From the NCBI RefSeq assembly GCF_039555335.1, contig NC_092647.1, positions 18,820,946-18,884,945 of the forward strand: 64,000 nt of DNA. The letters are read 5' to 3'. Below, piece after piece: positions 4,875-58,642 of the stretch; within the stretch, counting starts at the first letter, position 1, and each line of letters begins with the position of its first letter. The DNA comes from Amphiura filiformis (lineage: Eukaryota). The position numbers were made by a program, and so were the translations under genes. The notes under the pieces are model-generated. The model was not told the DNA's origin and searched no databases. It saw nothing but the letters and a program-made list of their open reading frames with translations.

Positions 4875-5063
4875 TCATTTCATATGACAGTGTGAAGCTT
4901 TTGTTGCAATATTGGCAAGTATAAGGCTTCTCTTTCGTATAAATTCGTTCATGTATTTTAAATACATGAACGAATTTATGCTACTTGCCTGTGTGAAGCT
5001 GTTGTTGCAGATTTGGCACGTATAAGGTTTCTCTTTTGTATGAATTCGTTCATGTGCTTTCAA
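4875..5063 (-). CDS. ZF gene A distal degenerate fingers (3' terminus), containing a small palindromic inverted duplication
   Basis: HERIHTKEKPYTCQICNNSF.. finger motifs. AAATTCGTTCATGTATTTTAAATACATGAACGAATTT palindrome disrupts a finger. Confidence 0.5.
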   Translation of the reverse strand: MKAHERIHTKEKPYTCQICNNSFTQASSINSFMYLKYMNEFIRKRSLILANIATKASHCHMK

Positions 5064-5125
5064 GTTTCCTGGAGTTATAAAACGCAGTATTCATTGCAGT
5101 ATGTAAGGAGTCTCGTTGGTATGAA

Positions 5126-5581
5126 CTAGTTCAAGCTGCAAGTTGCAAGACTGTGTGAAGCCTTTATTGCATTTTTGACATATGTGTAAAGCTCCTCTCT
5201 CGTATGAATTCTTTCATGTCTTCTCAAGCTACAAGCCTGTGTGAAGCTTGTGTTGCAGATTTGGCAAGTATAAGGTTTCTTTTTTGTATGAATTCGTTCA
5301 TGTGCTTTCAAGTTACCTTTCAGTGTGAAGCCTTTATTGCAATATTGACATAAGTAAGGCTTCTCTTTCGTTTGAATTCGTTCATGTATTTTCAAGTAAC
5401 GGGACTTTGCGAAGCCTTTGTTGCAGACTTGGCAAGTATAAGGCTTCTCTTTTGTATGAATTCGTTCATGTATTTTCAAGTCACTTGACTGTGTGAATCC
5501 TTTGTTGCAATATTGACATATGTAAAGCTTCTCTCTCGTATGCATTCGTTCATGTCTTTTCAAGCTACCCAGCAAACACAA
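5126..5581 (-). CDS. ZF gene A fingers 11b-15 downstream of the MITE-a insertion (continuation of CDS 6234-7523)
   Basis: Starts ..SLKRHERMH, which is exactly the missing half of the finger broken at 6260. There are 4 more fingers. One has a H-to-Q ligand change (HERIQ). Confidence 0.65.
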   Translation of the reverse strand: MCLLGSLKRHERMHTREKLYICQYCNKGFTQSSDLKIHERIHTKEKPYTCQVCNKGFAKSRYLKIHERIQTKEKPYLCQYCNKGFTLKGNLKAHERIHTKKKPYTCQICNTSFTQACSLRRHERIHTREELYTYVKNAIKASHSLATCSLN

Positions 5582-6259
5582 AACGTTTTCGACATCATTC
5601 GCAAAAGGTTATAAAAGGTTGTCGGAAAACGTTTAAATGTCGGGTTATATAAAAGGTACATTAATGGTATAAAACGTCTTCATAACATTAAATAACATTT
5701 GTTGGTAATTTACTGCACAGCAAACACAAATGTTTTACAGAAAATATTTAAATGTCGAGTTATATAAAGGGTATAAAAACGTTTTAATAACATTCCAAAA
5801 ACATTTGTGAAAACTTGGTACAAATCATTCCAAACAGAATGTTATTTTGGGGTTGAAAAAATATTTTGCAAAAAATGTTTGCCCAAAATATTTAAAATAA
5901 CGTTTTTAAAATGTTTTCACGACCTTTATAAAACCCGACATTTAAATGTTATTAAAACGTTTTGTAAAAAACATTTAAAGAACATTTCTGTGTTTGCTGG
6001 GTGCAAATATTTTAATATAATGTTATTTAAGTGTTGACAAAATATTTGACCAAAAATGTTTGCAAAAATAGTTTACAATGACATTTCGAAAACATTTTAA
6101 AAATATTGTTGTAGTGTGTTTTCATACAAAACGTTTTAAAACGATTTCATGACCTTTATATAACCCGACATTTTAATGTTATTAAAACGTTTTACCTAAA
6201 CCAAAACCCAAAATATAACTTATTTAAAACGTTTTAAAAACGTTTTTGTGTTTGCTGGG
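5568..6259. mobile_element. composite MITE-a insertion #1 (692 bp): TIR CCCAGCAAACAC/GTGTTTGCTGGG, flanking TA duplication, internal nested copy 5713-6004
   Basis: The ends are perfect inverted repeats. TA is present at 5566-5567 and 6260-6261. The internal 292-bp unit has its own TIRs of about 70 bp (CAGCAAACACAAATGTTTTA..TAAATGTCGAGTTATATAAA). It is 92% identical to the copy at 56483-57173. Confidence 0.7.
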
Positions 6260-7523
6260 TACCTGACTGTATGAAGCTTTTGTTGCAGATTTGGCAAGTG
6301 TAAGGTTCCTCTTTTGAATGAATTCGTTCATGTATTTTCAAGGCACATGACTGTGTGAAGCCTTTGTTGCAGTATTGGCATATGAAAGGCCTCTCTTTCG
6401 TATGGATTCGTTCATGTATTTTCAAGGCACATGACTGTGTGAAGCCTTTGTTGCAATATTGACATGTGTAAGGCGTCTCGTTGGTATGAAATCGTTCATG
6501 ATATTTCAAGTAACCAGACGTTGTGAAGCCTTTGTTGCAGTATTGGCAAATATAAGGCCTTTCTTTGGTATGTATTCGTTCATGTATTTTCAAGTTCCCA
6601 GACTGTGCGAAGCCTTTGTTGCAGTATTGACATATGAAAGGCTTCTCTTTCGTATGAATTCGTTCATGTGTTTTCAATTCACCAGACTGTGTGAAGCCTT
6701 TGTTGCAGTATTGGCATATGAAAGGCTTCTCTTTCGTATGGATTCGTTCATGTGTTTTCAAGTGACCTGACGTTGTGAAGCCTTTGTTGCAGTATTGGCA
6801 TATGAAAGGCTTCTCTTTCGTATGAATTCGTTCATGTCTTTTCAAGTTACCTGACGTTGTGAAGCCTTCGTTGCAGTATTGGCATATGAAAGGCTTCTCT
6901 TTCGTATGGACTCGTTCATGTATTTTCAAGGCACATGGCTGTGTGAAGCCTTTGTTGCAATATTGACATATGTAAGGCGTCTCGTTGGTATGAATTCGTT
7001 CATGTGTTTTTAAGTTCCCAGACGTTGTGAAGCCTTTGTCGCAGTATTGGCATATGAAAGGCTTCTCTTTCGTATGGATTCGTTCATGTGTTTTCAAGTG
7101 ACCTGACTGTGTGAAGCCTTTATTACAGTATTGACATATGAAAGGCTTCTCTTTCGTATTATTTTGTTTATGTACATTTACCTTACTGATTGAAAACGGT
7201 TTGTCAAAATTTTGACCTTGATAAAATACCAATTGCGAATCGTTCTCATTGGTTGGTTTGCTTGATGAACCATTACCACTTGTCCATTGGTCAAGAGATG
7301 GTGACGTCAAATAACCATCGCTTCTGCTATTATCGGAGGTCTTTATATTTCTGCTTGGAATGGGTATCAATTTCTTCTTATAGTCATACCAATATGCACG
7401 AATCCACAGCTCATGACGCAGATGACGCAGATATCGATGATTATTATTAAAGAACCTTCGTCTGCAATATTTACACACGTGAGGCATCAGGTATTCCCAT
7501 TCTCGTGGTCTTCTTAGAGGCAT
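6234..7523 (-). CDS. ZF gene A: N-terminal domain (about 135 aa) plus 10 C2H2 fingers and the first half of finger 11. The stop is provided by the MITE-a insertion.
   Basis: ORF of 429 aa. ATG at 7521-7523 preceded by ..CATTCATTGCAG. C-x2-C-x12-H-x3-H units with HTKEKP(F/Y) linkers. Confidence 0.8.
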   Translation of the reverse strand: MPLRRPREWEYLMPHVCKYCRRRFFNNNHRYLRHLRHELWIRAYWYDYKKKLIPIPSRNIKTSDNSRSDGYLTSPSLDQWTSGNGSSSKPTNENDSQLVFYQGQNFDKPFSISKVNVHKQNNTKEKPFICQYCNKGFTQSGHLKTHERIHTKEKPFICQYCDKGFTTSGNLKTHERIHTNETPYICQYCNKGFTQPCALKIHERVHTKEKPFICQYCNEGFTTSGNLKRHERIHTKEKPFICQYCNKGFTTSGHLKTHERIHTKEKPFICQYCNKGFTQSGELKTHERIHTKEKPFICQYCNKGFAQSGNLKIHERIHTKERPYICQYCNKGFTTSGYLKYHERFHTNETPYTCQYCNKGFTQSCALKIHERIHTKERPFICQYCNKGFTQSCALKIHERIHSKEEPYTCQICNKSFIQSGTQQTQKRF

Positions 7524-8090
7524 TCCTGCAATGAATGGTAAAAAGCAATCTGTCTAATTAAGGCAACATTACGAATTTGAGAAAACTATTTCATTATTGG
7601 GTTACTTGTTAGTTCTACTTTCACGGGACTGTTCCAATTGTATGCCTCCTTGTAGGCGTTTCTGATACAAATTATATGCGAGGCTATTCTTTACTTGATT
7701 TGGAAGTCGTTAAGGGTAGACGAAGCAATTGTTGGTCGAAGCAACCTAAAAATCGATTTTCATTATCTTGATCAATATATTATTGAAAAATTACACCTTG
7801 ATGTTTTGCAAAAGTTCATTCTACAAATCGTATACTTTGCAAACTTGCTTAATTTATTGTTGTTAATGAGTTATGTACGTTTTACAAAAGTGTTGTTGTT
7901 TCAGCCCTCTTTACAACATAACTCAAGAACCACAGGACCTACAAAAGTATATCTGTGATATTTTAATTCTTCTACACAATCGCTATGAATTGAGCAATGC
8001 AGTTTTTGCCAAAGCTCACTACCATTCGTACGATGCTGTGAACTACCAAATCACAACAGTTTAAAATAATCAATAACCTTAAAGACATTT
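7524..8090 (-). promoter_or_regulatory. conserved upstream region of gene A (intron 3' end/promoter). Homologous blocks lie upstream of genes B, C, E, G and pseudogene F.
   Basis: 7524-7700 is about 90% identical to 28556-28750. 7700-8070 is about 80% identical to 25480-25800. A splice-acceptor-like YYYYCAG lies directly before the ATG. Confidence 0.4.
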
Positions 8091-15540: not shown

Positions 15541-16370
15541 ATACAAGTTGTGGAGTTCCACAGGGCTCGATCTTAGGCCCCTTATTATTCATTTTATATA
15601 TAAATGACATTGTGTTTACAAGTAAATTCTTCTCATTTGTCATCTATGCTGATGACACTAATTTATTGGCTTCACATAAAAATCTCCATCACCTCATACA
15701 TTCAGCTAATATCGAACTTACAAAAATTTCCACATGGCTTAAAGTAAACAAACTTTCCCTTAATATTAAAAAGACCACGTATATGTTATTTAAAAACAAA
15801 CACAACACGCGCTTAACGTATCCAGACACCATATCAATAAATATTGAAAACAAACCTATCTCAAGGGTCTCTCACACAAAATTTCTCAGGATAATTCTTG
15901 ATGATTCTCTAACATGGCATCAACATAACACTTATATTACAAATATTGTTTCGAAGTATTCAGGTATCCTTTATCGTCTTAAACACATACTTTCTGGCTC
16001 AACGTTATTTTCTCTTTATTCTAGTTTGGTTTTACCACATATTCAATATTGTAATATCATTTGGGCCGACAAGAATAATTGCTATTTACAATCTATTTAT
16101 CTCAAACAAAAGAAAATTGTCCGTTTATGCACCAACTCACATTACCTTGCACACACACAACCTTTGTTTAAGAGATTAAATACACTTACAGTCTTTGATA
16201 TTTACAAATATCAAATTTCCCTCTTATGTATAAGTTCAAAAGTGGCTTACTCCCAAATATTTTCACTGATTATTTTAAGAAGAGTAATACCTTCCATTCT
16301 TATGGAACCAGGTCAGCTGAACTGTATAGACCTCACAACTTCAGAACAGATCTTGCAAATAACACAATGA
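15234..16370 (+). CDS. LINE-1 reverse transcriptase (post-frameshift segment)
   Basis: [42 protein letters not shown] (YxDD) motifs. Confidence 0.8.
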   Translation: MYNFISRFNLLHNSQFGFRSNRSTSMAIMEVYNKIVNDLDNKNHALGIFLDLSKAFDTVNHDILFSKLAHYGIRGNAFDWFRSYLTDRSQFVNFNHRKSIHLNTSCGVPQGSILGPLLFILYINDIVFTSKFFSFVIYADDTNLLASHKNLHHLIHSANIELTKISTWLKVNKLSLNIKKTTYMLFKNKHNTRLTYPDTISINIENKPISRVSHTKFLRIILDDSLTWHQHNTYITNIVSKYSGILYRLKHILSGSTLFSLYSSLVLPHIQYCNIIWADKNNCYLQSIYLKQKKIVRLCTNSHYLAHTQPLFKRLNTLTVFDIYKYQISLLCISSKVAYSQIFSLIILRRVIPSILMEPGQLNCIDLTTSEQILQITQ

Positions 16371-18794: not shown

Positions 18795-19230
18795 GCGTCT
18801 TTTTGGCATGACTTCGCTCATGTGTTTTCAAATTACCTGACTTTGTGAAGCCTTTGTTGCAGTATTGACATATGTAAGGCTTCAATTTAGTATGAATTCG
18901 TTCACGTGTTTTCAAGTTACCTAACTGCATGAAGCCTTTGTTGTAGTATTGGCATATGTAAGGCTTCTCTTTGGTATGGATACATTCATGTCTTTTCAAG
19001 CTACCTGACTGTGTGAAGCCTTTGTTGCAGTATTGGCATAGGTAAGGCTTCTCTTAAGTATGAATTTGCTCATGTGTTTTGAAGTCACTAGACTGTGTGA
19101 AGCATTTGTTGCAGTATTGGCATATGTAAAGCTTCCCTTTGGCATGAATTAGTTCATGTGTTTTCAAGCTACCTGACTGTGTGAAGCATTTGTTGCAATA
19201 TTGGCACATGTAAGGTTTCTCTTTCTTATT

Positions 19231-19501
19231 GTTTGTTTGTTTGTTTGTTTACCCAGGTTGGTCCGTGAGGAACACATGCTAATCCATGGAAAACCATGGA
19301 CAGTTCCAAGCTCATACAAATGCACAAGCCTGGATAGCCAGTGTAGGCTAATATATGCATGTTGGCCTAGATAGCTTTGATAAACAAAGCAAGAAATGGA
19401 AGAAAATAGCTAGGAAAAAGAGAAAAGAGAGAAGGCCACTCCCAAACACAATTGTACAATTTTACTCTTAGCCCTTACTTCGTGAGAAAGGAAACTGGAA
19501 T
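19231..19501 (-). mobile_element. insertion of about 270 bp into a finger of gene B, with a (TTTG)5 terminus; SINE-like, family unknown
   Basis: The ZF consensus TTCTCTTTCGTATGAATTCGTTCATG is split between 19230 and 19502 by unrelated sequence that starts with TGTTTGTTTGTTTGTTTGTTT. Confidence 0.4.
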
Positions 19502-19677
19502 TCCAATCTGAATTCGTTCATGTATTTGTAAGTTCCCAGATTGTGTGAAACCTTTGTTGCAGTATTGGCATATATAAGGCTTCACTTTGGTATGGATACG
19601 TTCATGTCTTTTCAAATAAACAGAATGTGTGAAGCCTTTGTTGCAGTATTGGCATAGGTAAGGCTTCTCTTTTGTAT

Positions 19678-21193
19678 CAAACTGTGTAGACTCTCATTCA
19701 TCTGGGTATGTTGAAATTAAGATTTAATTTAAATCTGGTCAACCAGACATACCTATTTTTGACGGACGAACCGACGTTGCGACTGAAACCTTCAGTCTTC
19801 AGCTGGGTTGTGATGCAAATGACCTTGAGTACCGGACACTTCCGGTATTGATGACAATCGACGAGGAATGTCCTTTATGATCCTGTCCCAGCCGTGTGAA
19901 CACTTCATGAACGGACAAACTTGTCTCCTGATCAATTATGTGATCTACTTAGTCTCTGCTTAGATAACACCTACTTTTCGTACAGTGGAAAATTTTACCA
20001 ACAATGTCATGGATGTTCCATGGGTTCGCCCGTCTCACCGATTATCGCTAACTTGTATATGGAAAGATTTGAGCGCATTGCTTTGTCAATTTTTCCCGGT
20101 ATAGCGCCATCTAGATGGTATCGATACGTGGATGATACTTGGATTTTAATTAAATCCAACGAACTTGATAGGTTTTTCAACCACATCAATGAAATCGATC
20201 CCCATATCAAGTTCACGCAGGAAGGAGTGTCAAATAACAAACTCGCGTTTCTTGACTGTTTAGTGTCCGTGGAAGAAGATCGCTCCCTTACTGTGTCTGT
20301 TTATCGAAAACAGACACACACGGACCAGTACCTTCAATTCGGTTCCAATCACCCGCTCATTCAGAAACTCGGCGTGGTCAACACCTTGTTCCACAGAGCT
20401 GAGTCGATCATCACCAAAGACTCAGATAAGATTGCTGAACAACAACATCTTCGCAAAGCGCTGGGTAACTGTGGTTACCAGGACTGGGCCATAAACAAGG
20501 CCTTGAACAAGGACAGCAATAAACCCACCGCCAGTAGCACGAATCAGACGGGGAGAACAACAAGTATTACCATCCCATATCACGGAGACTTATCGGAAAA
20601 ACTCAAAAGAATCTATCGCGACCACGGAATTACCACCCACTTTAAACCAACGAACACGATCCGCCAGTCCTTAGTGCATCCCAAGGACAAGCAGCCCAAG
20701 GGGAGAATCAGTGGAGTGGTCTACGGGGTCCGCTGTTCCGAAGAGCAAGCCTGTCAAGACTCTTACATAGGAGAAACCGCCCAACCTCTTCACAATCGCA
20801 TGTTACAACATCGCAGAGCCAGCTCAGGTGGAAACGACTCATCAGTGTATTTACATTTGAAAGCCACCGGACACCATTTTGACACCAAGGATGTCCGAAT
20901 CCTAGATCGCGAGCATCGTTGGTTTGAGCGTGGAGTGAAAGAGGCAATCTGGGTGAGGGCTGAGCAACCATCCCTCAACCGCGGTGGCGGTGTCCGGGCC
21001 AAACTATCACACGGCTGGGACAGGATCATAAAGGACATTCCTCGTCGATTGTCATCAATACCGGAAGTGTCCGGTACTCAAGGTCATTTGCATCACAACC
21101 CAGCTGAAGACTGAAGGTTTCAGTCGCAACGTCGGTTCGTCCGTCAAAAATAGGTATGTCTGGTTGACCAGATTTAAATTAAATCTTAATTTC
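19678..21193 (+). mobile_element. truncated Penelope-like retroelement with inverted-repeat termini of about 195 bp (19713-19899 versus 21007-21193) and a 10-bp TSD TCTTTTGTAT
   Basis: Inverted repeats are near-perfect. TSD at 19668-19677 and 21194-21203. The right IR encodes the last 36 aa of the ORF. Inserted in a ZF finger. Confidence 0.8.
19921..21114 (+). CDS. Penelope-like RT (C-terminal motifs, YVDD) fused to a GIY-YIG endonuclease
   Basis: GSPVSPIIANLYME, WYRYVDDTWIL, then GVVYGVRC..YIGET (GIY-YIG). Confidence 0.8.
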   Translation: MSPDQLCDLLSLCLDNTYFSYSGKFYQQCHGCSMGSPVSPIIANLYMERFERIALSIFPGIAPSRWYRYVDDTWILIKSNELDRFFNHINEIDPHIKFTQEGVSNNKLAFLDCLVSVEEDRSLTVSVYRKQTHTDQYLQFGSNHPLIQKLGVVNTLFHRAESIITKDSDKIAEQQHLRKALGNCGYQDWAINKALNKDSNKPTASSTNQTGRTTSITIPYHGDLSEKLKRIYRDHGITTHFKPTNTIRQSLVHPKDKQPKGRISGVVYGVRCSEEQACQDSYIGETAQPLHNRMLQHRRASSGGNDSSVYLHLKATGHHFDTKDVRILDREHRWFERGVKEAIWVRAEQPSLNRGGGVRAKLSHGWDRIIKDIPRRLSSIPEVSGTQGHLHHNPAED

Positions 21194-22839
21194 TCTTTTG
21201 TATGATTTTTGTCATGTGTTTTCAAGTCACTAGACTGTGTGAAGCTTTCTTTGCAGTATTGGCACATGTAAAGCTTCCCTTTGGCATGAAGTAGTTTATG
21301 TGTTTTCAAGTTACCTGACTGTGTGAAGCATTTGTTGCAATATTGGCACATGAAAGGCTTCTCTTTCGTATGAATTCGTTCATGTATTTTCAAGTAACCA
21401 GACGTTGTGAAGCCTTTGTTGCAGTATTGGCATATGAAAGGCTTCTCTTTGGTATGAGTTCGTTCATGTGTTTTCAAGTTACCAGACTGTGTGAAGCCTT
21501 TGTTGCAGTATTGACATATGAAAGACTTCTCTTTCGTATGAATTCGTTCATGTCTTTCCAAGTCAACAGACCGTGTGAAGCCTTTGTTGCAGTATTGGCA
21601 TTTATATGGCTTCTCTTTGGTATGAGTTCGTTCGTGTGTTTTCAAGTGATTAGACTGTGTGAAGCCTTTATTACAGTATTGGCATATATAAAGCTTGTCT
21701 TTGGTATGAATTCGTTCGTGTGTTTTCAAGCTATTTGACCGTGTGAAGCATTTGTTGCAATATTGGCACATGTAAGGTTTCTCTTTCTTATGAATTCGTT
21801 CATGTGTTTTTAAGTTCCCAGATTGTGTGAAACCTTTGTTGCAGTATTGGCATATGAAAGGCTTCTCTTTGGTATGGATACGTTCATGCCTTTTCAAGTG
21901 ACAATAATGTGAGAAGCCTTTGTTGCAGTATTGACATGGGTACGGCTTCCCTTTTGTATGAATTTGTTCATGTGTTTTCAAGTCACTAGACTGTGTGAAG
22001 CATTTGTTGCAGTATTGGCATATGTTAAGCTTTCCTTTGGCATGAAGTAGTTCATGTGTTTTCGAGGTACCTGACTGTGTGAAGCATTTGTTGCAATATT
22101 GGCATATGAAAGGCTTCTCTTTCGTATGAATTCGTTCATGTGTTTTTAAGTTCCCAGACGTTGTGAAGCGTTTGTCGCAGTATTGGCATATAAAAGGCTT
22201 CTCTTTCGTATGAATTCGTACATGTATTTTCAAGTAACGAGACTGTGCGAAGCCTTTGTTGCAGTATTGACATATGTTAGGCTTCTCTTTCGTATGAACT
22301 CGTTCGTGTGCTTTCAAGTTACTAGACTGTGCGAAGCCTTTGTTGCAGTATTGACATATGTAAGGCTTCTCTTTCGTATGAATTCGTTCATGTCTTTCCA
22401 AGTCAACAGACTGTGTGAAGCCTTTGTTGCAGTATTGGCATATGTAGGGCTTCTCTTTTGTATTATTTTGTTTATGTACGTTTACCTTACTGATTGAAAA
22501 CGTTTTGTCATAATTTTGACCTTGGTAAAATAACAGTTGCGAATCGTCCTCCTCGTTCGTTTTTTTGCTTGATGAGTCATTACCACGTGTCCATTGGTCA
22601 GGAGAGGGTGACGTCAGAAAACCATCGCTTCTGCTCTTATCGGAGGTATTTATATTTCTGCTTGGAATGGGTATGAACTTCTTCTTATACGAGTAGTCAT
22701 ACCAATATGCACGAATCCACAGCTCATGATGACGCAGATGATGAAGATATCGATGATTATTATTAAAGAACCTTCGTCTGCAATATTTACACACGTGAGG
22801 CATCAGGTAATCCCATTCTCGTGGTCTTCTTAGAGGCAT
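21055..22839 (-). CDS. ZF gene B: N-terminal domain plus about 16 fingers. The last 46 codons (21055-21193) are read-through into the Penelope IR.
   Basis: MPLRRPREWDYLMPHVCKYCRRRFFNNNHRYLHHLRHH... ATG at 22837-22839 preceded by TTTCAG. Confidence 0.75.
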   Translation of the reverse strand: MPLRRPREWDYLMPHVCKYCRRRFFNNNHRYLHHLRHHELWIRAYWYDYSYKKKFIPIPSRNINTSDKSRSDGFLTSPSPDQWTRGNDSSSKKTNEEDDSQLLFYQGQNYDKTFSISKVNVHKQNNTKEKPYICQYCNKGFTQSVDLERHERIHTKEKPYICQYCNKGFAQSSNLKAHERVHTKEKPNICQYCNKGFAQSRYLKIHVRIHTKEKPFICQYCDKRFTTSGNLKTHERIHTKEKPFICQYCNKCFTQSGTSKTHELLHAKGKLNICQYCNKCFTQSSDLKTHEQIHTKGKPYPCQYCNKGFSHYCHLKRHERIHTKEKPFICQYCNKGFTQSGNLKTHERIHKKEKPYMCQYCNKCFTRSNSLKTHERIHTKDKLYICQYCNKGFTQSNHLKTHERTHTKEKPYKCQYCNKGFTRSVDLERHERIHTKEKSFICQYCNKGFTQSGNLKTHERTHTKEKPFICQYCNKGFTTSGYLKIHERIHTKEKPFMCQYCNKCFTQSGNLKTHKLLHAKGKLYMCQYCKESFTQSSDLKTHDKNHTKEKLRFNLNLVNQTYLFLTDEPTLRLKPSVFSWVVMQMTLSTGHFRY

Positions 22840-25800: not shown

Positions 25801-26579
<779 letters not shown>

Positions 26580-26580
<1 letters not shown>

Positions 26581-26828
26581 CAAAGGTCATCAAAACGTTT
26601 TTAATACATATTAAAACACACTACAACGAACTTGTTGTCAAAATGTTATTGTAAAATGTTTTTGCAAACATGTTTTAACAAACATTTCGTCAACACCTAA
26701 ATTACATTATGTTATAAAAACGTTTTATACTCTTTATATACACTTTATATAACCCGACATTTACACGTTTTTTGGCAATCTTTTTTAACCTTTTGCGAAC
26801 GTTGTCGGAAACGTGTTGTGTTTGCTGG
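26580..26828. mobile_element. partial MITE-a forming the 3' end of ZF gene C (right TIR at 26817-26828)
   Basis: Same finger/MITE junction sequence as at 18794. Confidence 0.55.
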
Positions 26829-27245
26829 GGCGTCTCTTTGGCATGACTTCTCTCATGTGTTTTCAAGTTACCTGACTTTGTGAAGCCTTTGTTGCAGTAT
26901 TGACATATGTAAGGCTTCATTTTTGTATGAATTCGCTCACGTGATTTCAAGTTACCTAACTGTATGAAGCCTTTGTTGTAGTATTGACATTATGTAAGGT
27001 TTCTCTTTGGTATGGATACATTCATGTCTTTTCAAGCTACCTGACTGTGTGAAGCCTATGTTGCAGTATTGGCATAGGTAAGGCTTCTCTTTAGTATGAA
27101 CTTGCTCATGTGTTTTGAAGTCACTAGACTGTGTGAAGCATTTGCTGCAGTATTGGCATATGTAAAGCTTCCCTTTGGCATGGAGTAGTTCATGTGTTTT
27201 CAACTTACCTGACTTTGTGAAGCCTTTGTTGCAGTATCGGCACAT
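26702..27245 (-). CDS. ZF gene C distal fingers (two ORF pieces, 26952-27245 and 26702-26950, separated by 1-bp indels), ending inside the MITE-a
   Basis: Finger motifs. The C-terminus ..HAKETPQQTQHVSDN.. is encoded by the MITE-a TIR. Confidence 0.6.
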
Positions 27246-28555
27246 GTAAGGCTTCTCTTTGTATGAATTCGTTCATGTGTTTTTAAGTTCCCAGATTGTG
27301 TGAAACCTCTGTTGCAGTATTGGCATATGAAAGGCTTCTCTTTGGTATGGATACGTTCATGCCTTTTCAAGTGACAATAATGTGAGAAGCCTTTGTTGCA
27401 GTATTGACATGGGTACGGCTTCCCTTTTGTATGAATTTGTTCATGTGTTTTCAAGTCACTAGACTGTGTGAAGCATTTGTTGCAGTATTGGCATATGTTA
27501 AGCTTTCCTTTGGCATGAATTAGTTCATGATATTTCAAGCTGCTTGATTGTGTGAAGCTTTTGTTACAGTATTGACATACATATGGCTTTTTGTTGGTAT
27601 GGATTCGTTCATGTGTTTTCAAGTTACTTGACTGTGTGAATCCTTTGTTGCAGTATTGGCATACATATGGCTTTTTGTTGGTATGGATTCGTTCATGTGT
27701 TTTCAAGTTACTTGACCCTGCGAAGCCTTTATTGCAATATTGGCATATGAAAGGCTTCTCTTTCGTATGAATTCGTTCATGTACTTTCAGGTCATCAGAC
27801 CGTGCGAAGCCTTTGTTGCAGTATTGGCATAGGTAAGGCGTTTCTTTCATATGAATTCGTTCATGTCTTTTCAATTCACCAGACTGTGTGAAGCCTTTGT
27901 TGCAGTATTGGCATATGTAAGGTTTCTCTTTCGTATGAATTCGTTCATGTCTTTTTAAGTTCCCAGAGTGTGTGAAGCCTTTGTTGCAGTATTGGCATAT
28001 GAAAGGCGTCTCTTTCGTATGAATTCGTTCATGTGTTTTCAAGTTACCATACTGTGCGAAGCCTTTGTTGCAGTATTGACATATATAAAGCTTCTCTTTG
28101 GTGTGGATTCGTTCGTGTGTTTTCAAGCTACTTGACCGTGTGAAGCCTTTGTTGCGGTATTGGCATATGAAAGGCTTCTCTTTCATATTATTTTGTTCAT
28201 GTACGTTTACCTTACTGATTGAAAACGGTTTGTCATAATATTGACCTTGGTAACATAACAGTTGCGAATCGTCCTCCTCATTCGTTTTTTTGCTTGTTGA
28301 GTCATTACCACGTGTCCATTGGTCAAGAGATGGTGACGTCAGAAAACCATCGCTTCTGCTATCGGATGTATTTATATTTCTGCTTGGAATGGGTATCAAC
28401 TTCTTCTTATAGTCATACCAATATGCACGAATCCACAGCTCATGATGACGTAGATGACGCAGATATCGATGATTATTATTAAAGAACCTTCGTCTGCAAT
28501 ATTTACACACGTGAGGCATCAGGTATTCCCATTCTCGTGGTCTTCTTAGAGGCAT
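27200..28555 (-). CDS. ZF gene C: N-terminal domain plus about 11 fingers
   Basis: ORF of 451 aa. ATG at 28553-28555 preceded by TTTCAG. Confidence 0.8.
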   Translation of the reverse strand: MPLRRPREWEYLMPHVCKYCRRRFFNNNHRYLRHLRHHELWIRAYWYDYKKKLIPIPSRNINTSDSRSDGFLTSPSLDQWTRGNDSTSKKTNEEDDSQLLCYQGQYYDKPFSISKVNVHEQNNMKEKPFICQYRNKGFTRSSSLKTHERIHTKEKLYICQYCNKGFAQYGNLKTHERIHTKETPFICQYCNKGFTHSGNLKRHERIHTKEKPYICQYCNKGFTQSGELKRHERIHMKETPYLCQYCNKGFARSDDLKVHERIHTKEKPFICQYCNKGFAGSSNLKTHERIHTNKKPYVCQYCNKGFTQSSNLKTHERIHTNKKPYVCQYCNKSFTQSSSLKYHELIHAKGKLNICQYCNKCFTQSSDLKTHEQIHTKGKPYPCQYCNKGFSHYCHLKRHERIHTKEKPFICQYCNRGFTQSGNLKTHERIHTKRSLTCADTATKASQSQVS

Positions 28556-39998: not shown

Positions 39999-40015
39999 CT
40001 TCCGTGCAATAATTA

Positions 40016-46236: not shown

Positions 46237-46462
46237 CCCAGCAAACACACAGCGTTTTACAGAACATGTTTAAATGTCGGGTTATATAAAAACGTTCTAA
46301 TAACATTCATAAAACATTTTTGAAAGCGTGATGCAAAATATTTTAACAGAATGTTATTTAACTGTTGACAAAATATTTTGCCAATCTTAATATCATGACA
46401 TTTAAATGTTATTAGAAAAAACGTTTTGAATAACCGTTTTAATAACATTTTAGTGTTTGCTA
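46237..46462. mobile_element. solo MITE-a unit (about 225 bp), TA-flanked on the left, right TIR degenerate
   Basis: TA+CCCAGCAAACACACAGCGTTTTAC..TAAATGTCGGGTTATATAAA..AATAACATTTTAGTGTTTGCTAG. Confidence 0.55.
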
Positions 46463-48021: not shown

Positions 48022-48327
48022 TCAGCATATAATTATGTTAGGCTTCTCTTTCGTATGAATTCGTTCATGAGTTTTTAAGCTACATGGCTGTGTGAATCCA
48101 TTGCAGTATTGGTATATGCATGGCTTCTCTTTCGTATGGATTCGTTCATGTGTTTTCAATTCACTAAACTGTGTGAAGCCTTTATTGCAGTGTTGACATC
48201 TGTAAGGCGTCTCGTTTGTATGAACAAGTCCATGTGTTTTTAAGCCCCCTGACCATGTGAAGCCTTTATTGTAGTATTGACATCTGTAAGGCGTCTCTTT
48301 GGTATGAATTATTTCATGTGCTTTCAA
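48022..48327 (-). CDS. ZF gene E distal fingers (after a 4-bp frameshifting insertion at about 48370)
   Basis: Finger motifs. The terminal sequence at 47940-48020 is shared with the 3' ends at 25305 and 55925. Confidence 0.6.
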   Translation of the reverse strand: MKAHEIIHTKETPYRCQYYNKGFTWSGGLKTHGLVHTNETPYRCQHCNKGFTQFSELKTHERIHTKEKPCIYQYCNGFTQPCSLKTHERIHTKEKPNIIIC

Positions 48328-48352
48328 GTTACCTTTCAGCGTGAAGCCTTTA

Positions 48353-49357
48353 TTACAGTATTGACATAATTATGTAAGGCTTCTCCTTGGTATGGGTTCG
48401 TTCATGTCTTTTCAAGTGACCAGACGTTGTGAAGCTTTTGTTGCAGAGTTGGCATAAGTAAGGCTCCTCTCTCGTATGAATTCGTTCATGTGCTTTCAAG
48501 CTACATGCCTGTGTGAATCCTTTGTTGCAGAATTGGCAAGTATAAGGTTTTTCATTGGTATGAATTCTTTCATGTCTTTTCAAGCTATATGACAGTGTGA
48601 AACCTTTATTGCAGTATTGGCATTTGTAAGGCGTCTCTTTGGTATGAATTCTTTCATGTGCTTTCAATCCACTAGACTGTGTGAAGCCTTTGTTGCAGTA
48701 TTGACATGTGAAAGGCTTCTCTTTGGTATGAATTCGTTCATGTGTTTTCAAGTGACAAGACTGTGTGAACCCTTTGTTACAGTATTGGCATATGTAAGGC
48801 TTCTCTTTCGTATGAATTCGTTCATGTCTTTTCAAGCAACTTGACTGTGTGAAGCATTTGCGGCAGTATTGGCATATGTAAGGCTTCTCTTTGGTATGTG
48901 TTCGAGTGTGTTCTTTCAAGTCACATGACTGTGTGAAGCCTTTTTTACAGTATAAACATATGTAAGGCTTATCTTTGATGTGGGTTCGTTCATGTACGTT
49001 TATATTACTCACGATTGGAAACGTTTTTTCATAACGTTCACCTTGGTAATATTCCAATTGCGAATCGTTCTCATTCATTTCTTTGCTTATTGAGTCATTT
49101 CCACGTGTCCAATGGTTTAGAGATGGTGATGTCAGAAAACCATCTGTTCTGCTATCATCGGCGATGCTTATCTTACTGCTTGGTATTGGTATCGGTATCA
49201 ACTTCTTCTTATAGTCATACCAGTATGCACGAATCCACAGCTCATGATGACGCAGATGACGAAGATATCGATGATTATTATTAAAGAACCTTCGTCTGCA
49301 ATATTTACACACGTGAGGCATTAGATGGTCCCATTCTCTTGGTCTTCTTAGAGGCAT
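48353..49357 (-). CDS. ZF gene E: N-terminal domain plus about 7 fingers
   Basis: ORF of 334 aa. ATG at 49355-49357 preceded by TTTCAG. Confidence 0.8.
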   Translation of the reverse strand: MPLRRPREWDHLMPHVCKYCRRRFFNNNHRYLRHLRHHELWIRAYWYDYKKKLIPIPIPSSKISIADDSRTDGFLTSPSLNHWTRGNDSISKEMNENDSQLEYYQGERYEKTFPIVSNINVHERTHIKDKPYICLYCKKGFTQSCDLKEHTRTHTKEKPYICQYCRKCFTQSSCLKRHERIHTKEKPYICQYCNKGFTQSCHLKTHERIHTKEKPFTCQYCNKGFTQSSGLKAHERIHTKETPYKCQYCNKGFTLSYSLKRHERIHTNEKPYTCQFCNKGFTQACSLKAHERIHTREEPYLCQLCNKSFTTSGHLKRHERTHTKEKPYIIMSIL

Positions 49358-49439
49358 TCCTGAAATGAATGATGAATAGCAATCTGTCTAATTAAGACAA
49401 CATAACGAATCTGAGAAAACCATTTCATTATCGGGATTA
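49358..49439 (-). promoter_or_regulatory. conserved upstream block of gene E, truncated by a MITE-c insertion
   Basis: Homologous to 7524-7610. Confidence 0.4.
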
Positions 49440-49729
49440 CTTGTTAGTTCTACTTCCATGGAAGGAACTTTTGGCAAGCCGAGGGGTTGGGGGAAAGCGA
49501 TTTTTGGCACACATTCTTGGGGCGCCTTTTAAATAAAATCCTCTAAAAAGACTTGGGAAAACCGTACGGAAACTCTTAAATATGCAAATTTTCCTGCTCG
49601 CTGCGCTTGAAACATGTATATAGACCATTTAAGGTTTGCAAATTGGGATCCCAAAAATTTGGCATGGCGATTTTTGGCGAGCTGTTCGGAAATTAACCCC
49701 CGGGAGGCTCATAATTATTGCACAGCCCC
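49440..49729. mobile_element. MITE-c copy in opposite orientation, left TIR missing, right TIR GGCTCATAATTATTGCACAGCCCC followed by TAA
   Basis: Collinear with the reverse complement of 40016-40342. Confidence 0.6.
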
Positions 49730-55573: not shown

Positions 55574-56050
55574 GCTTCTATTGTAACACATTCCATCCAC
55601 CATTTACAACATTGAAAGTTAGAAGCCGTAAATCAGAGATTTCAGTTAACGCCAAACAAGACGTAACTCAGTACGTACAGGAATACTAAAGAATATCTTA
55701 AATTCCACTATTCTTATATATATTGACATTTGTTATAATGGATAGGATACAACATCCGGTTATTATAGGCTAAACTTGACTTAAATCAGACACTTACATT
55801 GTGAGTTATACTTAGGTTTAGTTCGGTAAAAATATTAAAACCTGTTCTCAAAATTGCATTTCTTGAGTTAAGGCTTTTCTGGTTCTCAACCCTCGAATAA
55901 ATAAATAGAAAGATAACAAAATAATTCGTTCATGTCTCTTCATGATATCACACCTTGTGAAACATTTTTCGCAGTATTAGCATAAGGCTTCTCTTTAGTA
56001 TGAATTCATTTATGTGTTTAGTAACTAGACAGTGGGAAGCCTTTGTTGCA

Positions 56051-56494
56051 TTATTTACCTATGTAAGGATTATCTTTGATATGAACTCTTTCATGCTTCT
56101 TCAAATTATTTGACGCTGCAAAGCTTTTATTGCAATACTGGCATTTGTAAGGCTTCTCTTTGGTATGGATTCGTTCATGTATTTTCAAGTTCCCAGACTG
56201 TGTGAAGCATTTTTTGCAGTATTTACATATGTAAGGCTTCTCTTTGGTATGAATTCGTTCATGTCTTTTCCAGTGACCTGACTGTGTGAAGCCTTTATTA
56301 CAGTATTGACATACGTAAGGCTTCTCTTTCGTATGGATTCGTTCATGTGTTTTCAACTTAAATAACTGTGTGAAGCCTTTGTTGCAGACTTTGCATAGGT
56401 AAGGCTTCTCTTTCGTATGAATTCGTTCATGTGTTTTCAAATTACATAACTGTATGAAGCCTTTGTTGCAGTATTGGCATATCCCAGCAAACAC
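56051..56494 (-). CDS. ZF gene G distal 5 fingers (continuation after the MITE-a insertion)
   Basis: Begins ICQYCNKGF, which completes the linker KETPY|I broken at 57174. Confidence 0.65.
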   Translation of the reverse strand: MFAGICQYCNKGFIQLCNLKTHERIHTKEKPYLCKVCNKGFTQLFKLKTHERIHTKEKPYVCQYCNKGFTQSGHWKRHERIHTKEKPYICKYCKKCFTQSGNLKIHERIHTKEKPYKCQYCNKSFAASNNLKKHERVHIKDNPYIGK

Positions 56495-57173
56495 AAAACG
56501 TTTTCGACATTATTCGCAAAAGGTTATAAAAGGTTGTCAGAAAACGTTTAAATGTCGGGTTATATAAAGGGCATATTAAGGGTATAAAACGTTTTCATAA
56601 CATTGAAAATCATTTTTTGATAATCTACTGCTCAGCAAACAAAAATATTTTACAGAAAACGTTTAAATGTCGGGTTATATAAAGGGTATAAAAACGTTTT
56701 AATAACATTCCAAAAACATTTTTGAAAACTTGATACAAAACATTCTAAACAGAATGTTATTTTGGGAGTTGAAAAATATTTTGCGAAAAATGTTTGCCCA
56801 AAATATTTGCAATAACGTTTTGAAAACGTTTTCATGACCTTTATATAACCCGACATTTAAATGTTATTAAAACGTTTTGAAAAAAACATTTTAAGAACAT
56901 TTCTGTGTTTGCTGGATGCAAATATTTTAACATAATGTTATTTAAGTGTTGACAAAATATTTGGCAAAAATGTTTGCAAAAAAGTTTACAATAACATTTT
57001 GAAAACATTTTAAAAATATTGTGGTAGTGTGTTTTCATACAAAACGTTTTAAAACGTTTTCATGACCTTTATATAACCCGACATTTTAATGTTATTAAAA
57101 CGTTTTTATGTAAACCAAAAACCAAAATATAACTTATTAAAAACGTTTTTAAAACGTTTTTGTGTTTGCTGGG
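56483..57173. mobile_element. composite MITE-a insertion #2 (691 bp), AT duplication at 56481-56482 and 57174-57175
   Basis: Same four-part internal structure, about 92% identical to 5568-6259. Perfect TIRs CCCAGCAAACAC/GTGTTTGCTGGG. Confidence 0.7.
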
Positions 57174-58642
57174 ATGTAAGGCGTCTCTTTGGTATGAATT
57201 CGTTCATGTATTTTCAAGTTATATGACCGTATGAAGCATTTATTACAATATTGGCATATGTAAGGCGTCTCTTTGGCATGAGTTTGTTCATGTACTTTCA
57301 AGTTACCTGACTTTGTGAAGCCTTTTTTACAGTATTGGCATATGTAAGGCTTCTCTTTGGTATGGATTCGTTCATGTTCTTTCAAGTGACCTGACCGTGG
57401 GAAGCCTTTATTACAATATTGACATATGTAAGGCTTCTCTTTCGTATGAATTCGTTCATGTGTTTTCAAATGACATAACTGTGTGAAGCCTTTGTTGCAG
57501 TATTGGCATATGTAAGGCGTCTTATTGGTATGAATTCGTTCATGTGATTTCAAGTGGCCAGACGTTGTGAAGCCTTTATTACAATATTGACATATGTATG
57601 GCGTCTCTTTGGTATGGATTCGTTCATGTGTTTTCAAGGGACTTGACTGTGTGAAGCCCTTATTACAGTATTGACATATGTAAGGCTTCTCTTTCGTATG
57701 AATTCGTTCATGTGTTTTCAAATGACATAACTGTGTGAAGCCTTTGTTGCAGTATTGGCATATGTAAGGCGTCTTATTGGTATGAATTCGTTCATGTGAT
57801 TTCAAGTGGCCAGACGTTGTGAAGCCTTTATTACAATATTGGCATATGTATGTCGTCTCTTTGGTATGGATTCGTTCATGTGTTTTCAAGTGACTTGACT
57901 GTGTGAAGCCCTTATTACAGTATTGACATATGTAAGGCTTCTCTTTCGTATGAATTCGTTCATGTGTTTTCAAATTACATAACTGTGTGAAGCCTTTGTT
58001 GCAGCGTTTGCATAGGTAAGGCCTCTCTTTGGTATGATTTAGTTCATGATTTTTCAAGCTATGTACATATGGAAACCCTTTATTGCAAAACTGACATAGG
58101 TACGGCGTCTCCTTGGTATGAATTCGTTCATGTCTTTTCAAGTTACCTGACTGTGTGAAGCCTTTTTTACAGTATTGACATATGTAAGGCTTCTCCTTGG
58201 TATGGATTCGTTCATGTACTTTCAAGTTACTTAACTGTGTGAAGCCTTTATTACAGTATTGACATATGTAAGGCTTCTCGGTTCGTTCATGTACTTTTAC
58301 CTTACTCCTGGTTGGAAACATTGTCTCATAATATTCACCTTGGTAAAATACCAATTGCGAATCGTTCTCCTTCGTTTGTTTGCTTGATGGGTCATTTTCA
58401 CCTGTCCATTGGTCAAGAAATGGTAACGTCAGAAAACCGCCTTTTCTAATGGCATCGGAGATGTTTATATTTCTGCTTGGAGAGGGTATCATCAACTTCT
58501 TCTTATACCAGTATGCTCGAATCCACAGCTCATGACGACGTAGATGACACAGATATCGATGTGTATTATTAAAGAACCTTCTGCAATATTTACACACGTG
58601 AGGCATCAAGCACTGCCATTCTCGTGATCCTCTTGGAGGCAT
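57149..58642 (-). CDS. ZF gene G: divergent N-terminal domain (MPPRGSREWQCLMPHVCKYCRRFFNNTHRYLCHLRRH..) plus 13 fingers. The stop is provided by the MITE-a.
   Basis: ORF of 497 aa. ATG preceded by TTGTTCCAG. Confidence 0.8.
   Translation of the reverse strand: MPPRGSREWQCLMPHVCKYCRRFFNNTHRYLCHLRRHELWIRAYWYKKKLMIPSPSRNINISDAIRKGGFLTLPFLDQWTGENDPSSKQTKENDSQLVFYQGEYYETMFPTRSKVKVHERTEKPYICQYCNKGFTQLSNLKVHERIHTKEKPYICQYCKKGFTQSGNLKRHERIHTKETPYLCQFCNKGFPYVHSLKNHELNHTKERPYLCKRCNKGFTQLCNLKTHERIHTKEKPYICQYCNKGFTQSSHLKTHERIHTKETTYICQYCNKGFTTSGHLKSHERIHTNKTPYICQYCNKGFTQLCHLKTHERIHTKEKPYICQYCNKGFTQSSPLKTHERIHTKETPYICQYCNKGFTTSGHLKSHERIHTNKTPYICQYCNKGFTQLCHLKTHERIHTKEKPYICQYCNKGFPRSGHLKEHERIHTKEKPYICQYCKKGFTKSGNLKVHEQTHAKETPYICQYCNKCFIRSYNLKIHERIHTKETPYIPANTKTF

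What the first reader, a model, noticed from the sequence alone, without database searches (positions are those of the whole stretch)
4875..58642. Lineage-specific tandem C2H2-ZF gene cluster with a novel shared N-terminal domain and a non-canonical TKEKP linker
Five full paralogs (A 6234-7523, B 21055-22839, C 27200-28555, E 48353-49357, G 57149-58642) plus pseudogenes D and F all lie on the minus strand. All begin with the same domain of about 130 aa (MPLRRPREW(E/D)YLMPHVCKYCRRRFFNNNHRYLRHLRHHELWIRAYWYDY..), which itself contains a degenerate C2H2-like ligand set, followed by long finger arrays. Every linker is HTKEKP(Y/F) rather than the near-universal HTGEKP. Framework residues are almost invariant, while the helix positions (QSGNLKT, TSGHLKT, QSCALKI, QSRYLKI, RSDDLKV ...) differ from finger to finger and between paralogs. 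This architecture (conserved effector-like N-terminus, fast-evolving arrays, tandem duplication, embedded in a TE-dense region) is analogous to KRAB-ZFP, ZAD-ZF and SCAN clusters, but the N-terminal domain matches none of those families as far as I can recognise from sequence. That makes it a candidate new ZF-associated domain.
Basis: partly seen in the sequence, partly recalled or inferred. Interest (0 to 1): 0.8.

Follow-up and report, generated by a model that had tools for sequence, protein, structure and literature searches.

The report
Brittle-star-type zinc-finger gene cluster
Five tandem zinc-finger transcription-factor genes share a conserved ~50-residue N-terminal module, built around an unusual zinc finger, that no domain database describes and that otherwise turns up only in brittle-star proteins, so this is a new lineage-specific branch of a well-known kind of fast-evolving gene family.

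Summary
Five minus-strand ORFs sit exactly at the stated coordinates. About 79 canonical C2H2 fingers lie on that strand, and none of the 77 analysed has a TGEKP linker (K replaces G).

The "130-aa domain" is three things:
- a conserved ~55-residue module, an atypical CX2CX13HX3H finger flanked by REWDYL and I(R/K)(P/A)YWY;
- a low-complexity spacer;
- a decayed finger.

Only the module is conserved outside the window. It defines a family of 38 protein clusters, and every one with a taxon label is an "uncharacterized protein" of the brittle star Amphiura filiformis. The local Pfam copy, PDB and the searchable literature do not describe it.

dN/dS is about 1.6–3.8 at DNA-contact positions, 0.2–0.36 on the finger framework and 0.31 on the module.

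Corrections:
- All five arrays are truncated at the 3' end, by two independent MITE insertions, a retroelement, a 1-nt deletion and a stop.
- "Pseudogene F" is the severed tail of gene G, and D is probably the tail of C.
- A conserved splice acceptor sits 2 nt before each ATG.

An effector role for the module, or a role against transposons, is inferred by analogy only. Verdict: a new variant of a known kind (KRAB/ZAD/FiNZ-like), of moderate interest.

The parts
6234..7523 (-). Gene A coding exon as it stands (429 aa). The N-terminal module is about 7353-7523, followed by a spacer, a decayed finger, 10 intact fingers and an 11th finger cut by a MITE.
   Evidence: module scores 113.8 bits on the motif HMM
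5568..6259 (-). 692-bp MITE inserted inside finger 11 of gene A. Its TIR is CCCAGCAAACAC...GTGTTTGCTGGG and it has a TA target-site duplication.
   Evidence: removing the element plus one TA restores a 567-aa ORF with 14 fingers
4875..5567 (-). Severed 3' fingers of gene A. Four fingers are intact in frame (5126-5567), followed by frameshifted relics.
21055..22839 (-). Gene B coding exon as it stands (594 aa, 15 fingers). The N-terminal module is about 22663-22839. The last ~43 codons read into an inserted retroelement.
19694..21185 (+). Reverse-transcriptase-encoding retroelement fragment (RT ORF 19921-21114) inserted into gene B's finger array. Its ends are inverted repeats of each other.
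   Evidence: (RVT_1, E 1.8e-8). A Penelope-like class is my own reading and was not confirmed.
18808..19654 (-). Orphaned 3' fingers of gene B. 19224-18700 is 94.5% identical and 19680-19509 89.5% identical to gene C's array tail.
27200..28555 (-). Gene C coding exon as it stands (451 aa, 10 fingers). The N-terminal module is about 28385-28555. The ORF ends after a 1-nt deletion in an A-run at about 27265.
   Evidence: restoring one A gives 534 aa and 13 fingers
26004..27242 (-). No N-terminal region is present.
48353..49357 (-). Gene E coding exon as it stands (334 aa, 7 fingers). The N-terminal module is about 49184-49357.
48136..48366 (-). Out-of-frame, partly decayed fingers directly downstream of gene E's stop codon.
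57149..58642 (-). Gene G coding exon as it stands (497 aa, 13 fingers). The N-terminal module is about 58478-58642; it has X12 spacing and is the most diverged copy.
56483..57173 (-). 691-bp MITE of the same family as in gene A (92.8% identical). It is inserted between two fingers of gene G at a different finger phase, with an AT/AT flank.
   Evidence: removal restores a 632-aa ORF with 19 fingers
55985..56482 (-). It is the severed 3' fingers of gene G.
7524..7620 (-). Conserved 3' end of an intron: a polypyrimidine tract and CAG, 2 nt before the ATG of gene A. Equivalent segments are 22840-22922 (B), 28556-28650 (C), 49358-49461 (E) and 58643-58720 (G).
   Evidence: The same acceptor lies 1-5 nt before the ATG in homologues L001, L002 and L003.

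Best explanation
This is a tandem cluster of five paralogous Krueppel-type poly-zinc-finger transcription-factor genes. It belongs to a family so far seen only in brittle stars (Ophiuroidea), so the window probably comes from an ophiuroid other than Amphiura filiformis.

Gene structure. Each gene has a 5' intron ending 2 nt before the ATG, and the whole coding sequence sits in one exon.

Protein architecture:
(1) A ~55-residue N-terminal module. It has a short helix (REWDYL), an atypical zinc finger CX2C-X13-H-X3-H, and a conserved aromatic tail HE(L)xI(R/K)(P/A)YWY.
(2) A ~45-residue Ser/Thr/Asn/Asp-rich spacer.
(3) A finger that has lost its cysteines.
(4) Seven to fifteen canonical fingers joined by T-K-E-K-P-type linkers.

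Shown here:
- The module is under purifying selection, and it is the only part conserved in relatives.
- The finger scaffold and the linker Lys are constrained.
- The DNA-contact residues (-1, 2, 3, 6) change faster than synonymous sites.
- The cluster grew by tandem duplication: A, B and C are recent, E and G are older.
- All five arrays were later shortened by TE insertions or small mutations.

Inferred:
- The arrays give each paralogue a different DNA specificity.
- The constant N-terminal module supplies a common function. Most likely it binds a shared partner (a cofactor, or self-association), as KRAB, ZAD and FiNZ do.
- The family may be engaged with the abundant local transposons.
For: Coordinates and domains.

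The module is distinct from array fingers. It scores 102-121 bits on the motif HMM against 10.3 bits or less for any array finger inside the five genes.

Family. A profile search of 1.84 billion representatives gives 38 hits at E<=1e-3. All 12 labelled ones are 'uncharacterized protein [Amphiura filiformis]'. The 44-sequence alignment has invariant C17, Y19, C20, H34 and H38, and F24, Y31, Y45, W46 and Y47 at >=90%.

Fold. AlphaFold gives a beta-hairpin plus helix, with pLDDT 77-88 over the core. The best PDB fold and sequence matches are classical C2H2 fingers, and they cover the core only.

No described model. Pfam has no model for the module, and the searchable literature does not mention it.

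Selection. The module has omega 0.31 (0.07-0.35 among A, B, C and E). The spacer is 0.61 and the decayed finger 0.86. Contact residues give omega 2.2 over all pairs and 3.8 over nearest neighbours. A conservative estimate against dS of all sites is 1.6 (bootstrap 1.15-2.19). The framework is 0.21-0.36. The linker Lys has pN/pS 0.10-0.26.

Gene structure. The acceptor is conserved in all five paralogues and in three homologues from other assemblies.

Modularity. The module is duplicated in P0006, P0008 and P0028. It is joined to other domains in P0006 (His-Me endonuclease-like) and P0026 (sub-threshold ZAD-like). It occurs without canonical arrays in P0007 and P0015.
Against: - There is no expression, binding or interaction data, so the partner-binding and TE-related roles rest on analogy.
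- The core of the module is a finger, so it could simply be another nucleic-acid-binding unit.
- All five arrays are truncated.
- Copy A has lost one His of the HLRHH pair, giving H-X2-H spacing. Copy G is diverged, with omega 0.4-0.56. Some copies may therefore be decaying.
- The finger pairs used for dN/dS are not phylogenetically independent, and gene conversion between fingers is likely.
- The synonymous rate at the contact codons themselves is low, which inflates the raw ratios of 2.2-3.8.
- The structural models have only moderate confidence (mean pLDDT 70-74), and the YWY tail is poorly modelled.
- A newer Pfam accession, PF28035.1, is recorded for homologue P0011 and could not be looked up.
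Confidence: 0.6

Rival explanations
1. The N-terminal module is not an effector domain. It is a constant, specialised nucleic-acid-binding finger that anchors the protein on DNA or RNA or contributes to nuclear targeting. The whole N-terminus would then be a remodelled piece of the finger array.
For: Profile positions 13-38 align to classical DNA-binding fingers. The fold is beta-beta-alpha. A decayed finger lies between the module and the array, and it still has CQYC in P0001 and HERTH in copy E. That shows the N-terminus derives from fingers. The module is very basic (R/K-rich).
Confidence: 0.25
2. The cluster is a graveyard. The five copies are dead or dying duplicates being eroded by transposons, and their intact 5' ORFs reflect their youth rather than selection.
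For: Every array is truncated by a MITE, a retroelement, a frameshift or a stop. Copy A's N-terminal finger lost a His, and copy G's is diverged. The region is TE-dense.
Against: Omega is 0.31 on the module and 0.21-0.36 on the finger framework, at synonymous divergences up to about 0.29. That requires purifying selection after duplication. ORFs of 334-594 codons remain open at about 80% nucleotide identity. The acceptor and the ATG context are conserved. The C frameshift is in a homopolymer and could be an assembly error.
Confidence: 0.12
3. The module is a domesticated transposase-type DNA-binding finger (BED-like or similar), and the family descends from a mobile element.
For: The pattern W-x-Y-L ... 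CxxC ... YLxHLxxxH loosely recalls BED fingers; this is from memory and was not tested against a BED profile alignment. One family member (P0006) joins two modules to a His-Me/HNH endonuclease-like zinc domain, PF05551 at E 4.8e-12.
Against: hmmscan finds no zf-BED, THAP or transposase match on the module even at E<=10. The genes have no TIRs or TSDs of their own, and they have a conserved cellular-type intron. Sequence and fold neighbours are ordinary C2H2 fingers.
Confidence: 0.03

Closest known systems
FiNZ-ZNF genes of cyprinid fish (Wells et al. 2023, PMC10547256)
   Same: A short lineage-restricted N-terminal sequence with no similarity to known domains is attached to large C2H2 arrays. 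The genes are tandemly expanded, show positive selection and sit in TE-rich genomes.
   Different: FiNZ is a 28-aa acidic sequence on its own exon and is not a zinc finger. Here the module is about 55 aa, basic, built around a CCHH finger, and lies on the same exon as the array. TE repression has been shown experimentally for FiNZ and is untested here.
KRAB zinc-finger proteins of tetrapods
   Same: Both combine a constant N-terminal module with a variable finger array, tandem clusters, diversifying contact residues and framework constraint.
   Different: No KRAB (PF01352) match was found. KRAB is a helical TRIM28-binding domain without zinc, encoded on separate exons. KZFP linkers are TGEKP, whereas here they are TKEKP-type.
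ZAD zinc-finger proteins of insects
   Same: Both have an N-terminal zinc-coordinating module in front of C2H2 arrays and a lineage-specific expansion. ZAD acts by homodimerisation, which is a plausible model for this module.
   Different: ZAD is a ~75-aa C4 treble-clef-like fold (PF07776). There is no match in the window proteins. Here the ligands are CCHH in a beta-beta-alpha finger.
Atypical protein-binding C2H2-like fingers (UBZ of TAX1BP1/NDP52/RAD18; ZNF496 C2HR)
   Same: Both are single beta-beta-alpha zinc fingers used for protein rather than DNA recognition. They are among the top fold neighbours.

Membership tests
Classical C2H2 (Krueppel-type) poly-zinc-finger proteins | Tandem CX2-4CX12HX3-5H units recognised by PF00096/PF13465 | tested here: met
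   PF00096 at E 1e-33 to 6e-74 and PF13465 at E 3e-54 to 3e-78 for all five ORFs. There are 55 in-ORF canonical units.
Classical C2H2 (Krueppel-type) poly-zinc-finger proteins | Conserved TGEKP inter-finger linker | tested here: not met
   0 of 77 linkers have Gly at position 2. The consensus is TKEKP (25/55 exact in ORFs), and the Lys is under constraint with pN/pS 0.10-0.26. This is a variant of the linker, not a reason for exclusion from the superfamily.
KRAB-ZFP | N-terminal KRAB A/B box (PF01352) | tested here: not met
   No PF01352 hit at E<=1 on full proteins or at E<=10 on N-termini.
ZAD-ZNF | N-terminal C4 zinc-finger-associated domain (PF07776) | tested here: not met
   No PF07776 hit on the window proteins. 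Only the distant family member P0026 has a sub-threshold ZAD-like match (26.3 bits against a cut-off of 28), in a different part of the protein.
SCAN-ZNF / BTB-ZF | SCAN (PF02023) or BTB/POZ (PF00651) domain | tested here: not met
   Neither appears.
BED-finger proteins | zf-BED (PF02892) match over the aromatic-CxxC-HxxxH unit | tested here: not met
   No PF02892 hit on the N-terminal module at E<=10. The only BED hits lie inside the canonical finger arrays, not on the module (E 0.09-0.41 in A and B; 2.8e-4, 21.3 bits in C).
Ophiuroid 'REWDYL-finger-PYWY' N-terminal module family (undescribed; defined here) | Invariant C-X2-C-X12/13-H-X3-H, with conserved F, RY, and a Y-W-Y six to nine residues after the second His, usually at the extreme N-terminus | tested here: met
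   All five window copies score 102-121 bits on the motif HMM and align with 39 segments from 38 other proteins. Copy A deviates with H-X2-H spacing, and copy G has X12 spacing.
Ophiuroid 'REWDYL-finger-PYWY' N-terminal module family (undescribed; defined here) | Splice acceptor immediately (1-5 nt) upstream of the start codon, with a single coding exon | tested here: met
   YYYCAG lies 2 nt before the ATG in A, B, C, E and G, and 1-5 nt before it in L001, L002 and L003. Use of the site is not testable without RNA data.
TE-repressing ZNF system (KZFP/FiNZ-like function) | Arrays bind transposon sequences and the N-terminal domain recruits a silencing cofactor | not testable with these tools
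   No expression, ChIP or interaction data are available. Only indirect features are present: contact-site omega > 1 and TE-rich surroundings.

The most novel reading that the evidence does not exclude
The REWDYL-finger-PYWY module is an ophiuroid-specific effector or dimerisation domain. It would mark an independently evolved, KRAB/FiNZ-like family of rapidly diversifying zinc-finger repressors in an invertebrate deuterostome, engaged in an arms race with the same transposons that are seen inserting into the genes.
Probability: 0.25. Interest if true: 0.7.

Novelty: new variant of a known kind. Interest (0 to 1): 0.5.

Why it matters
Lineage-specific N-terminal domains (KRAB in tetrapods, ZAD in insects, FiNZ in carp) define the largest and fastest-evolving transcription-factor families in animals, and they are linked to transposon control. 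No equivalent has been described for echinoderms in the literature I could search.

This module gives a simple sequence handle, an HMM of about 55 residues. With it one could enumerate such a family in brittle stars, ask whether ZNF-based genome defence arose convergently in a third deuterostome lineage, and study what a Gly-to-Lys change in the otherwise near-universal TGEKP linker does to finger-DNA docking.

The practical value is modest until the source species, expression and partners are known.

Tried and rejected
- Known ZF-associated domains (KRAB, SCAN, ZAD, BTB, BED, THAP): no Pfam hit on the N-terminus, even at E<=10.
- Retrogene origin, suggested by the single coding exon: rejected. 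A conserved polypyrimidine-CAG acceptor lies 2 nt before every ATG, and 1-5 nt before it in three homologues.
- The 690-bp inserts in A and G as introns: rejected. They are MITEs with 12-nt perfect TIRs and 2-bp flanking duplications. Splicing at the available GT...AG in A would remove 4 extra nucleotides and shift the frame, whereas precise excision restores the finger.
- D and F as independent pseudogenes: rejected for F, which is colinear with the tail of G and has its ORF restored. It is unlikely for D, which has no N-terminal remnant and is separated from C only by a MITE fragment.
- Penelope-like (GIY-YIG) classification of the retroelement in B: not confirmed by Pfam. Only RVT_1 is supported.
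- Word-index searches for the module: a search with the 126-aa N-terminal region of B gave only one hit, and the last search, with alignment A3 of the module, returned nothing. The exhaustive representative search was needed.
- The look-up of encoding contigs for window protein E, P0004 and P0011: not on record. The Amphiura gene neighbourhoods could therefore not be read.
- PF28035.1, recorded for P0011: its identity could not be established. It is absent from the records of P0002 and P0018, which carry good copies of the module, so it is probably not a model of it.
- Literature: no paper mentions a TKEKP zinc-finger linker. The two brittle-star genome papers do not discuss ZNF families.
- Source organism: could not be identified. 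GCA_013332995 is not mentioned in any searchable paper.

Full report
1. OBSERVATION

The ORF list reproduces the five genes at exactly the stated minus-strand coordinates: A 6234-7523, B 21055-22839, C 27200-28555, E 48353-49357 and G 57149-58642. Each is dominated by PF00096/PF13465 zinc fingers, at E down to 3e-78.

A pattern scan finds 81 CX2CX12HX3H units on the minus strand. Two of them are the N-terminal fingers of B and G. The plus strand has only two, and both are antisense artefacts. tblastn with B's first 131 residues finds exactly five copies, 64-90% identical, one at the head of each gene and none elsewhere.

The window is AT-rich (GC 0.29-0.44). It carries at least three non-LTR/RT retroelement fragments: RVT_1 at 15234-16370, 19921-21114 and 33673-34461, and an endonuclease at 32471-33940. 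It also carries a MITE family.

2. ANATOMY OF THE N-TERMINUS

The "130-aa domain" is composite. Aligning the five copies with the only word-index hit shows that just the first ~58 residues are conserved between species. That hit is P0001, from a 1.3-kb contig of GCA_013332995.1.

The last ~30 residues before the first true finger (FYQGQNYDKxFSISKVNVHKQNNTKEKP) are a finger that has lost its cysteines. Copy E keeps HERTH, and P0001 keeps CQYC at the same place.

Pairwise Nei-Gojobori estimates give three different regimes:
- omega 0.31 for residues 1-57 (0.00-0.35 among A, B, C and E);
- omega 0.61 for the Ser/Thr/Asn/Asp-rich spacer;
- omega 0.86 for the decayed finger.

Only the first segment behaves as a constrained domain.

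3. THE MODULE DEFINES A FAMILY

An exhaustive HMMER search of 1.84 billion cluster representatives returned 38 proteins at E<=1e-3, of which 16 were at E<=1e-10. All carry [R/K]PxREWDYLxPxVCKYCxRRF(Y/F)NxxxRYLxHLRxHE(L)xI(R/K)PYWY.

In a 44-sequence alignment, C17, Y19, C20, H34 and H38 are invariant. F24, Y31, Y45, W46 and Y47 are conserved at >=90%. This gives a CX2C-X13-H-X3-H ligand set, with X12 in a few members including copy G.

I looked up 20 of the representatives. Twelve had a taxon label, and all twelve are "uncharacterized protein [Amphiura filiformis]". The rest come from unlabelled ENA or Logan assemblies, one of them a metagenome scaffold. The best full-length hit for gene A is also an A. 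filiformis protein, P0011 (E 2e-202, 98% coverage). After it the list dissolves into generic ZNFs from all animals. Proteins of other echinoderm classes are in the database (Acanthaster and Holothuria appear), but none of the labelled module-bearing proteins comes from them. I infer that the window comes from a brittle star other than A. filiformis; I could not verify this.

The module usually sits at the extreme N-terminus of C2H2 arrays, which use TKEKP or TGEKP linkers and sometimes both, as in P0011. It also occurs in other arrangements:
- twice or three times in P0006, P0008 and P0028;
- after a His-Me endonuclease-like zinc domain in P0006;
- after sub-threshold ZAD-like segments in P0026;
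- without canonical arrays in P0007 and P0015, which may be partial gene models.

This modularity argues for an autonomous domain.

4. WHAT THE MODULE IS

Pfam gives nothing except sub-threshold zf-C2H2_4 over residues 15-38. A profile search of PDB sequences aligns only positions 13-38, to classical fingers of PRDM9, ZBTB17 and SALL4. Each finger scores 8-17 bits and needs a one-residue insertion. The flanks are unmatched.

My motif HMM scores the five N-termini at 102-121 bits and no array finger within the five genes above 10.3 bits.

Conclusion: the module is a diverged C2H2 finger with conserved N- and C-terminal extensions. It is clearly distinct from the array fingers and is not represented in the local Pfam copy.

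One loose end remains. A newer Pfam accession, PF28035.1, is recorded for P0011. It is not recorded for P0002 or P0018, which have good modules, so it is probably unrelated. I could not look it up.

5. FINGERS AND LINKERS

I put 55 in-ORF fingers in register as 28 codons each.
- Amino-acid entropy is 1.8-2.8 bits at positions -1, +2, +3 and +6, and 0.5 bits or less at the Zn ligands, F, L(+4), K(+5) and four further scaffold positions; the remaining framework and linker positions reach 0.5-1.9 bits.
- dN/dS at the four contact positions is 2.17 over all pairs and 3.76 over nearest-neighbour pairs. The other 24 positions give 0.21 and 0.32.
- Synonymous change at the contact codons is itself low, so I also scaled by dS of all sites. 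That gives contact 1.61 (bootstrap 95% 1.15-2.19; 0.55% of bootstraps <=1) and framework 0.36. Restricting to nearest neighbours in different genes gives 1.63 (1.26-2.14).
- Caveats: the pairs are not independent, and gene conversion is likely.

There are 45 distinct recognition helices among the 55 fingers.

On linkers, none of the 77 has Gly at position 2. Exact TKEKP accounts for 25/55 in ORFs, so "every linker" is an overstatement. The Lys codon has pN/pS 0.10-0.26, so it is maintained by selection. From general knowledge, not tested here: the Gly of TGEKP adopts a left-handed conformation that caps the preceding helix when the protein docks on DNA. A fixed Lys is therefore a real structural variant. 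No searchable paper mentions a TKEKP zinc-finger linker.

6. GENE STRUCTURE AND DECAY

Paralogue similarity extends 80-190 nt upstream of the ATG. It ends in ...TTTACCATTCATTTCAG|GA-ATG in all five copies. The homologues L001, L002 and L003 have TTTCAG 1-5 nt before their ATG. So the coding sequence is a single exon preceded by a 5' intron, and these are not retrogenes.

At the 3' end, every array is truncated:
- **A** is cut inside finger 11 by a 692-bp MITE (5568-6259, TIR CCCAGCAAACAC, TA duplication).
- **G** is cut between fingers by a 691-bp copy (56483-57173, AT/AT flank). The two copies are 92.8% identical, more than the flanking genes at about 81%.
- The two MITEs lie at different finger phases, so the insertions are independent. 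In-silico excision restores ORFs of 567 aa with 14 fingers (A) and 632 aa with 19 fingers (G).
- **B** reads into an RT-encoding element (about 19694-21185). Its orphan fingers resume at 19654-18808 and are colinear with C's tail, with 19224-18700 at 94.5% and 19680-19509 at 89.5% identity.
- **C** stops after a 1-nt deletion in an A-run at about 27265. Restoring it gives 534 aa and 13 fingers. A MITE fragment then separates it from "D".
- **E** stops at a frameshift, and decayed fingers follow.

Out-of-ORF fingers that still look canonical have framework omega 0.33. That fits recent detachment, though it carries ascertainment bias.

Synonymous distances order the duplications as (A, B, C), about 0.07-0.16, then E, then G, about 0.2-0.29.

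7. MECHANISM

Shown:
- a common, constrained N-terminal zinc module;
- a constrained finger scaffold and Lys linker;
- hypervariable contact residues;
- tandem duplication;
- TE-mediated truncation.

Inferred:
- each paralogue binds a different DNA sequence;
- the constant module gives them a shared activity, most likely partner binding or self-association, by analogy with KRAB (TRIM28), ZAD (homodimers) and FiNZ (for FiNZ; KRAB and ZAD from general knowledge and the abstracts);
- a link to transposon control is plausible but untested.

The rivals are scored in their own section: the module as just another nucleic-acid-binding finger, the cluster as decaying pseudogenes, and a transposase-derived finger.

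8. COMPARISON AND NOVELTY

In how it works, the cluster resembles the KZFP, ZAD-ZNF and especially the FiNZ-ZNF families. It is not a member of any of them, because their defining domains were tested and are absent.

It is a member of the classical C2H2 superfamily, with a variant linker. It is also a member of an undescribed brittle-star family defined by the module. The brittle-star genome papers I could read do not mention ZNF families.

I rate it a new variant of a known kind. It is interesting to ZNF-evolution specialists but not surprising in principle.

Noticed in passing
window 5568-6259 and 56483-57173; partial copies at 18474-18794, 26578-26829 and 46233-46461: A ~690-bp MITE family with 12-nt perfect TIRs (CCCAGCAAACAC), 2-bp flanking duplications (TA, AT) and an internal direct repeat about 230 bp apart. 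Two full copies (92.8% identical) landed independently inside zinc-finger arrays. The partial copies lie at equivalent positions downstream of B and C, so they predate the B/C duplication or were spread by gene conversion.
   Followed up: partly
window 19694-21185 (+): An RT-encoding element splits gene B's array, and its two ends are inverted repeats of each other. The C-terminal part of its ORF looked GIY-YIG/Penelope-like to me, but Pfam did not confirm this.
   Followed up: partly
window 7410-7425 (gene A, codons ~34-38): Copy A has an in-frame loss of one His of the HLRHH pair. Its N-terminal finger therefore has H-X2-H instead of the family-invariant H-X3-H spacing, and it may be impaired.
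   Followed up: no
window ~27265 (gene C): The frameshift that ends gene C is a single-A deletion in a homopolymer (ACAAAAGAG to ACAAAGAG). It could be an assembly error rather than a real mutation.
   Followed up: partly
window 18700-19224 vs 26734-27260: The array tails of B and C are 94.5% identical, against about 84% for the gene bodies. This suggests recent gene conversion or a nested duplication.
   Followed up: no
window 12961-16370 (+) and 31939-35060 (+): Two non-LTR retrotransposon copies, each with an endonuclease and an RT broken by frameshifts. Both lie on the strand opposite to the ZF genes.
   Followed up: partly
P0006, P0026, P0028 (Amphiura filiformis proteins): The module appears in unusual architectures. 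It occurs twice after two His-Me/HNH endonuclease-like zinc domains (P0006, PF05551 at E 4.8e-12), after two sub-threshold ZAD-like segments (P0026), and twice in a 1477-aa low-complexity protein (P0028).
   Followed up: partly
P0011 record: The precomputed Pfam list for the closest Amphiura homologue includes PF28035.1. That accession is newer than the local Pfam copy, and I could not identify it.
   Followed up: partly
L003 11304-14447: A 1047-aa ORF with no Pfam hit directly abuts, and overlaps by 10 nt, the module-bearing ZF gene P0018 on a 127-kb contig from another assembly. It was not examined.
   Followed up: no
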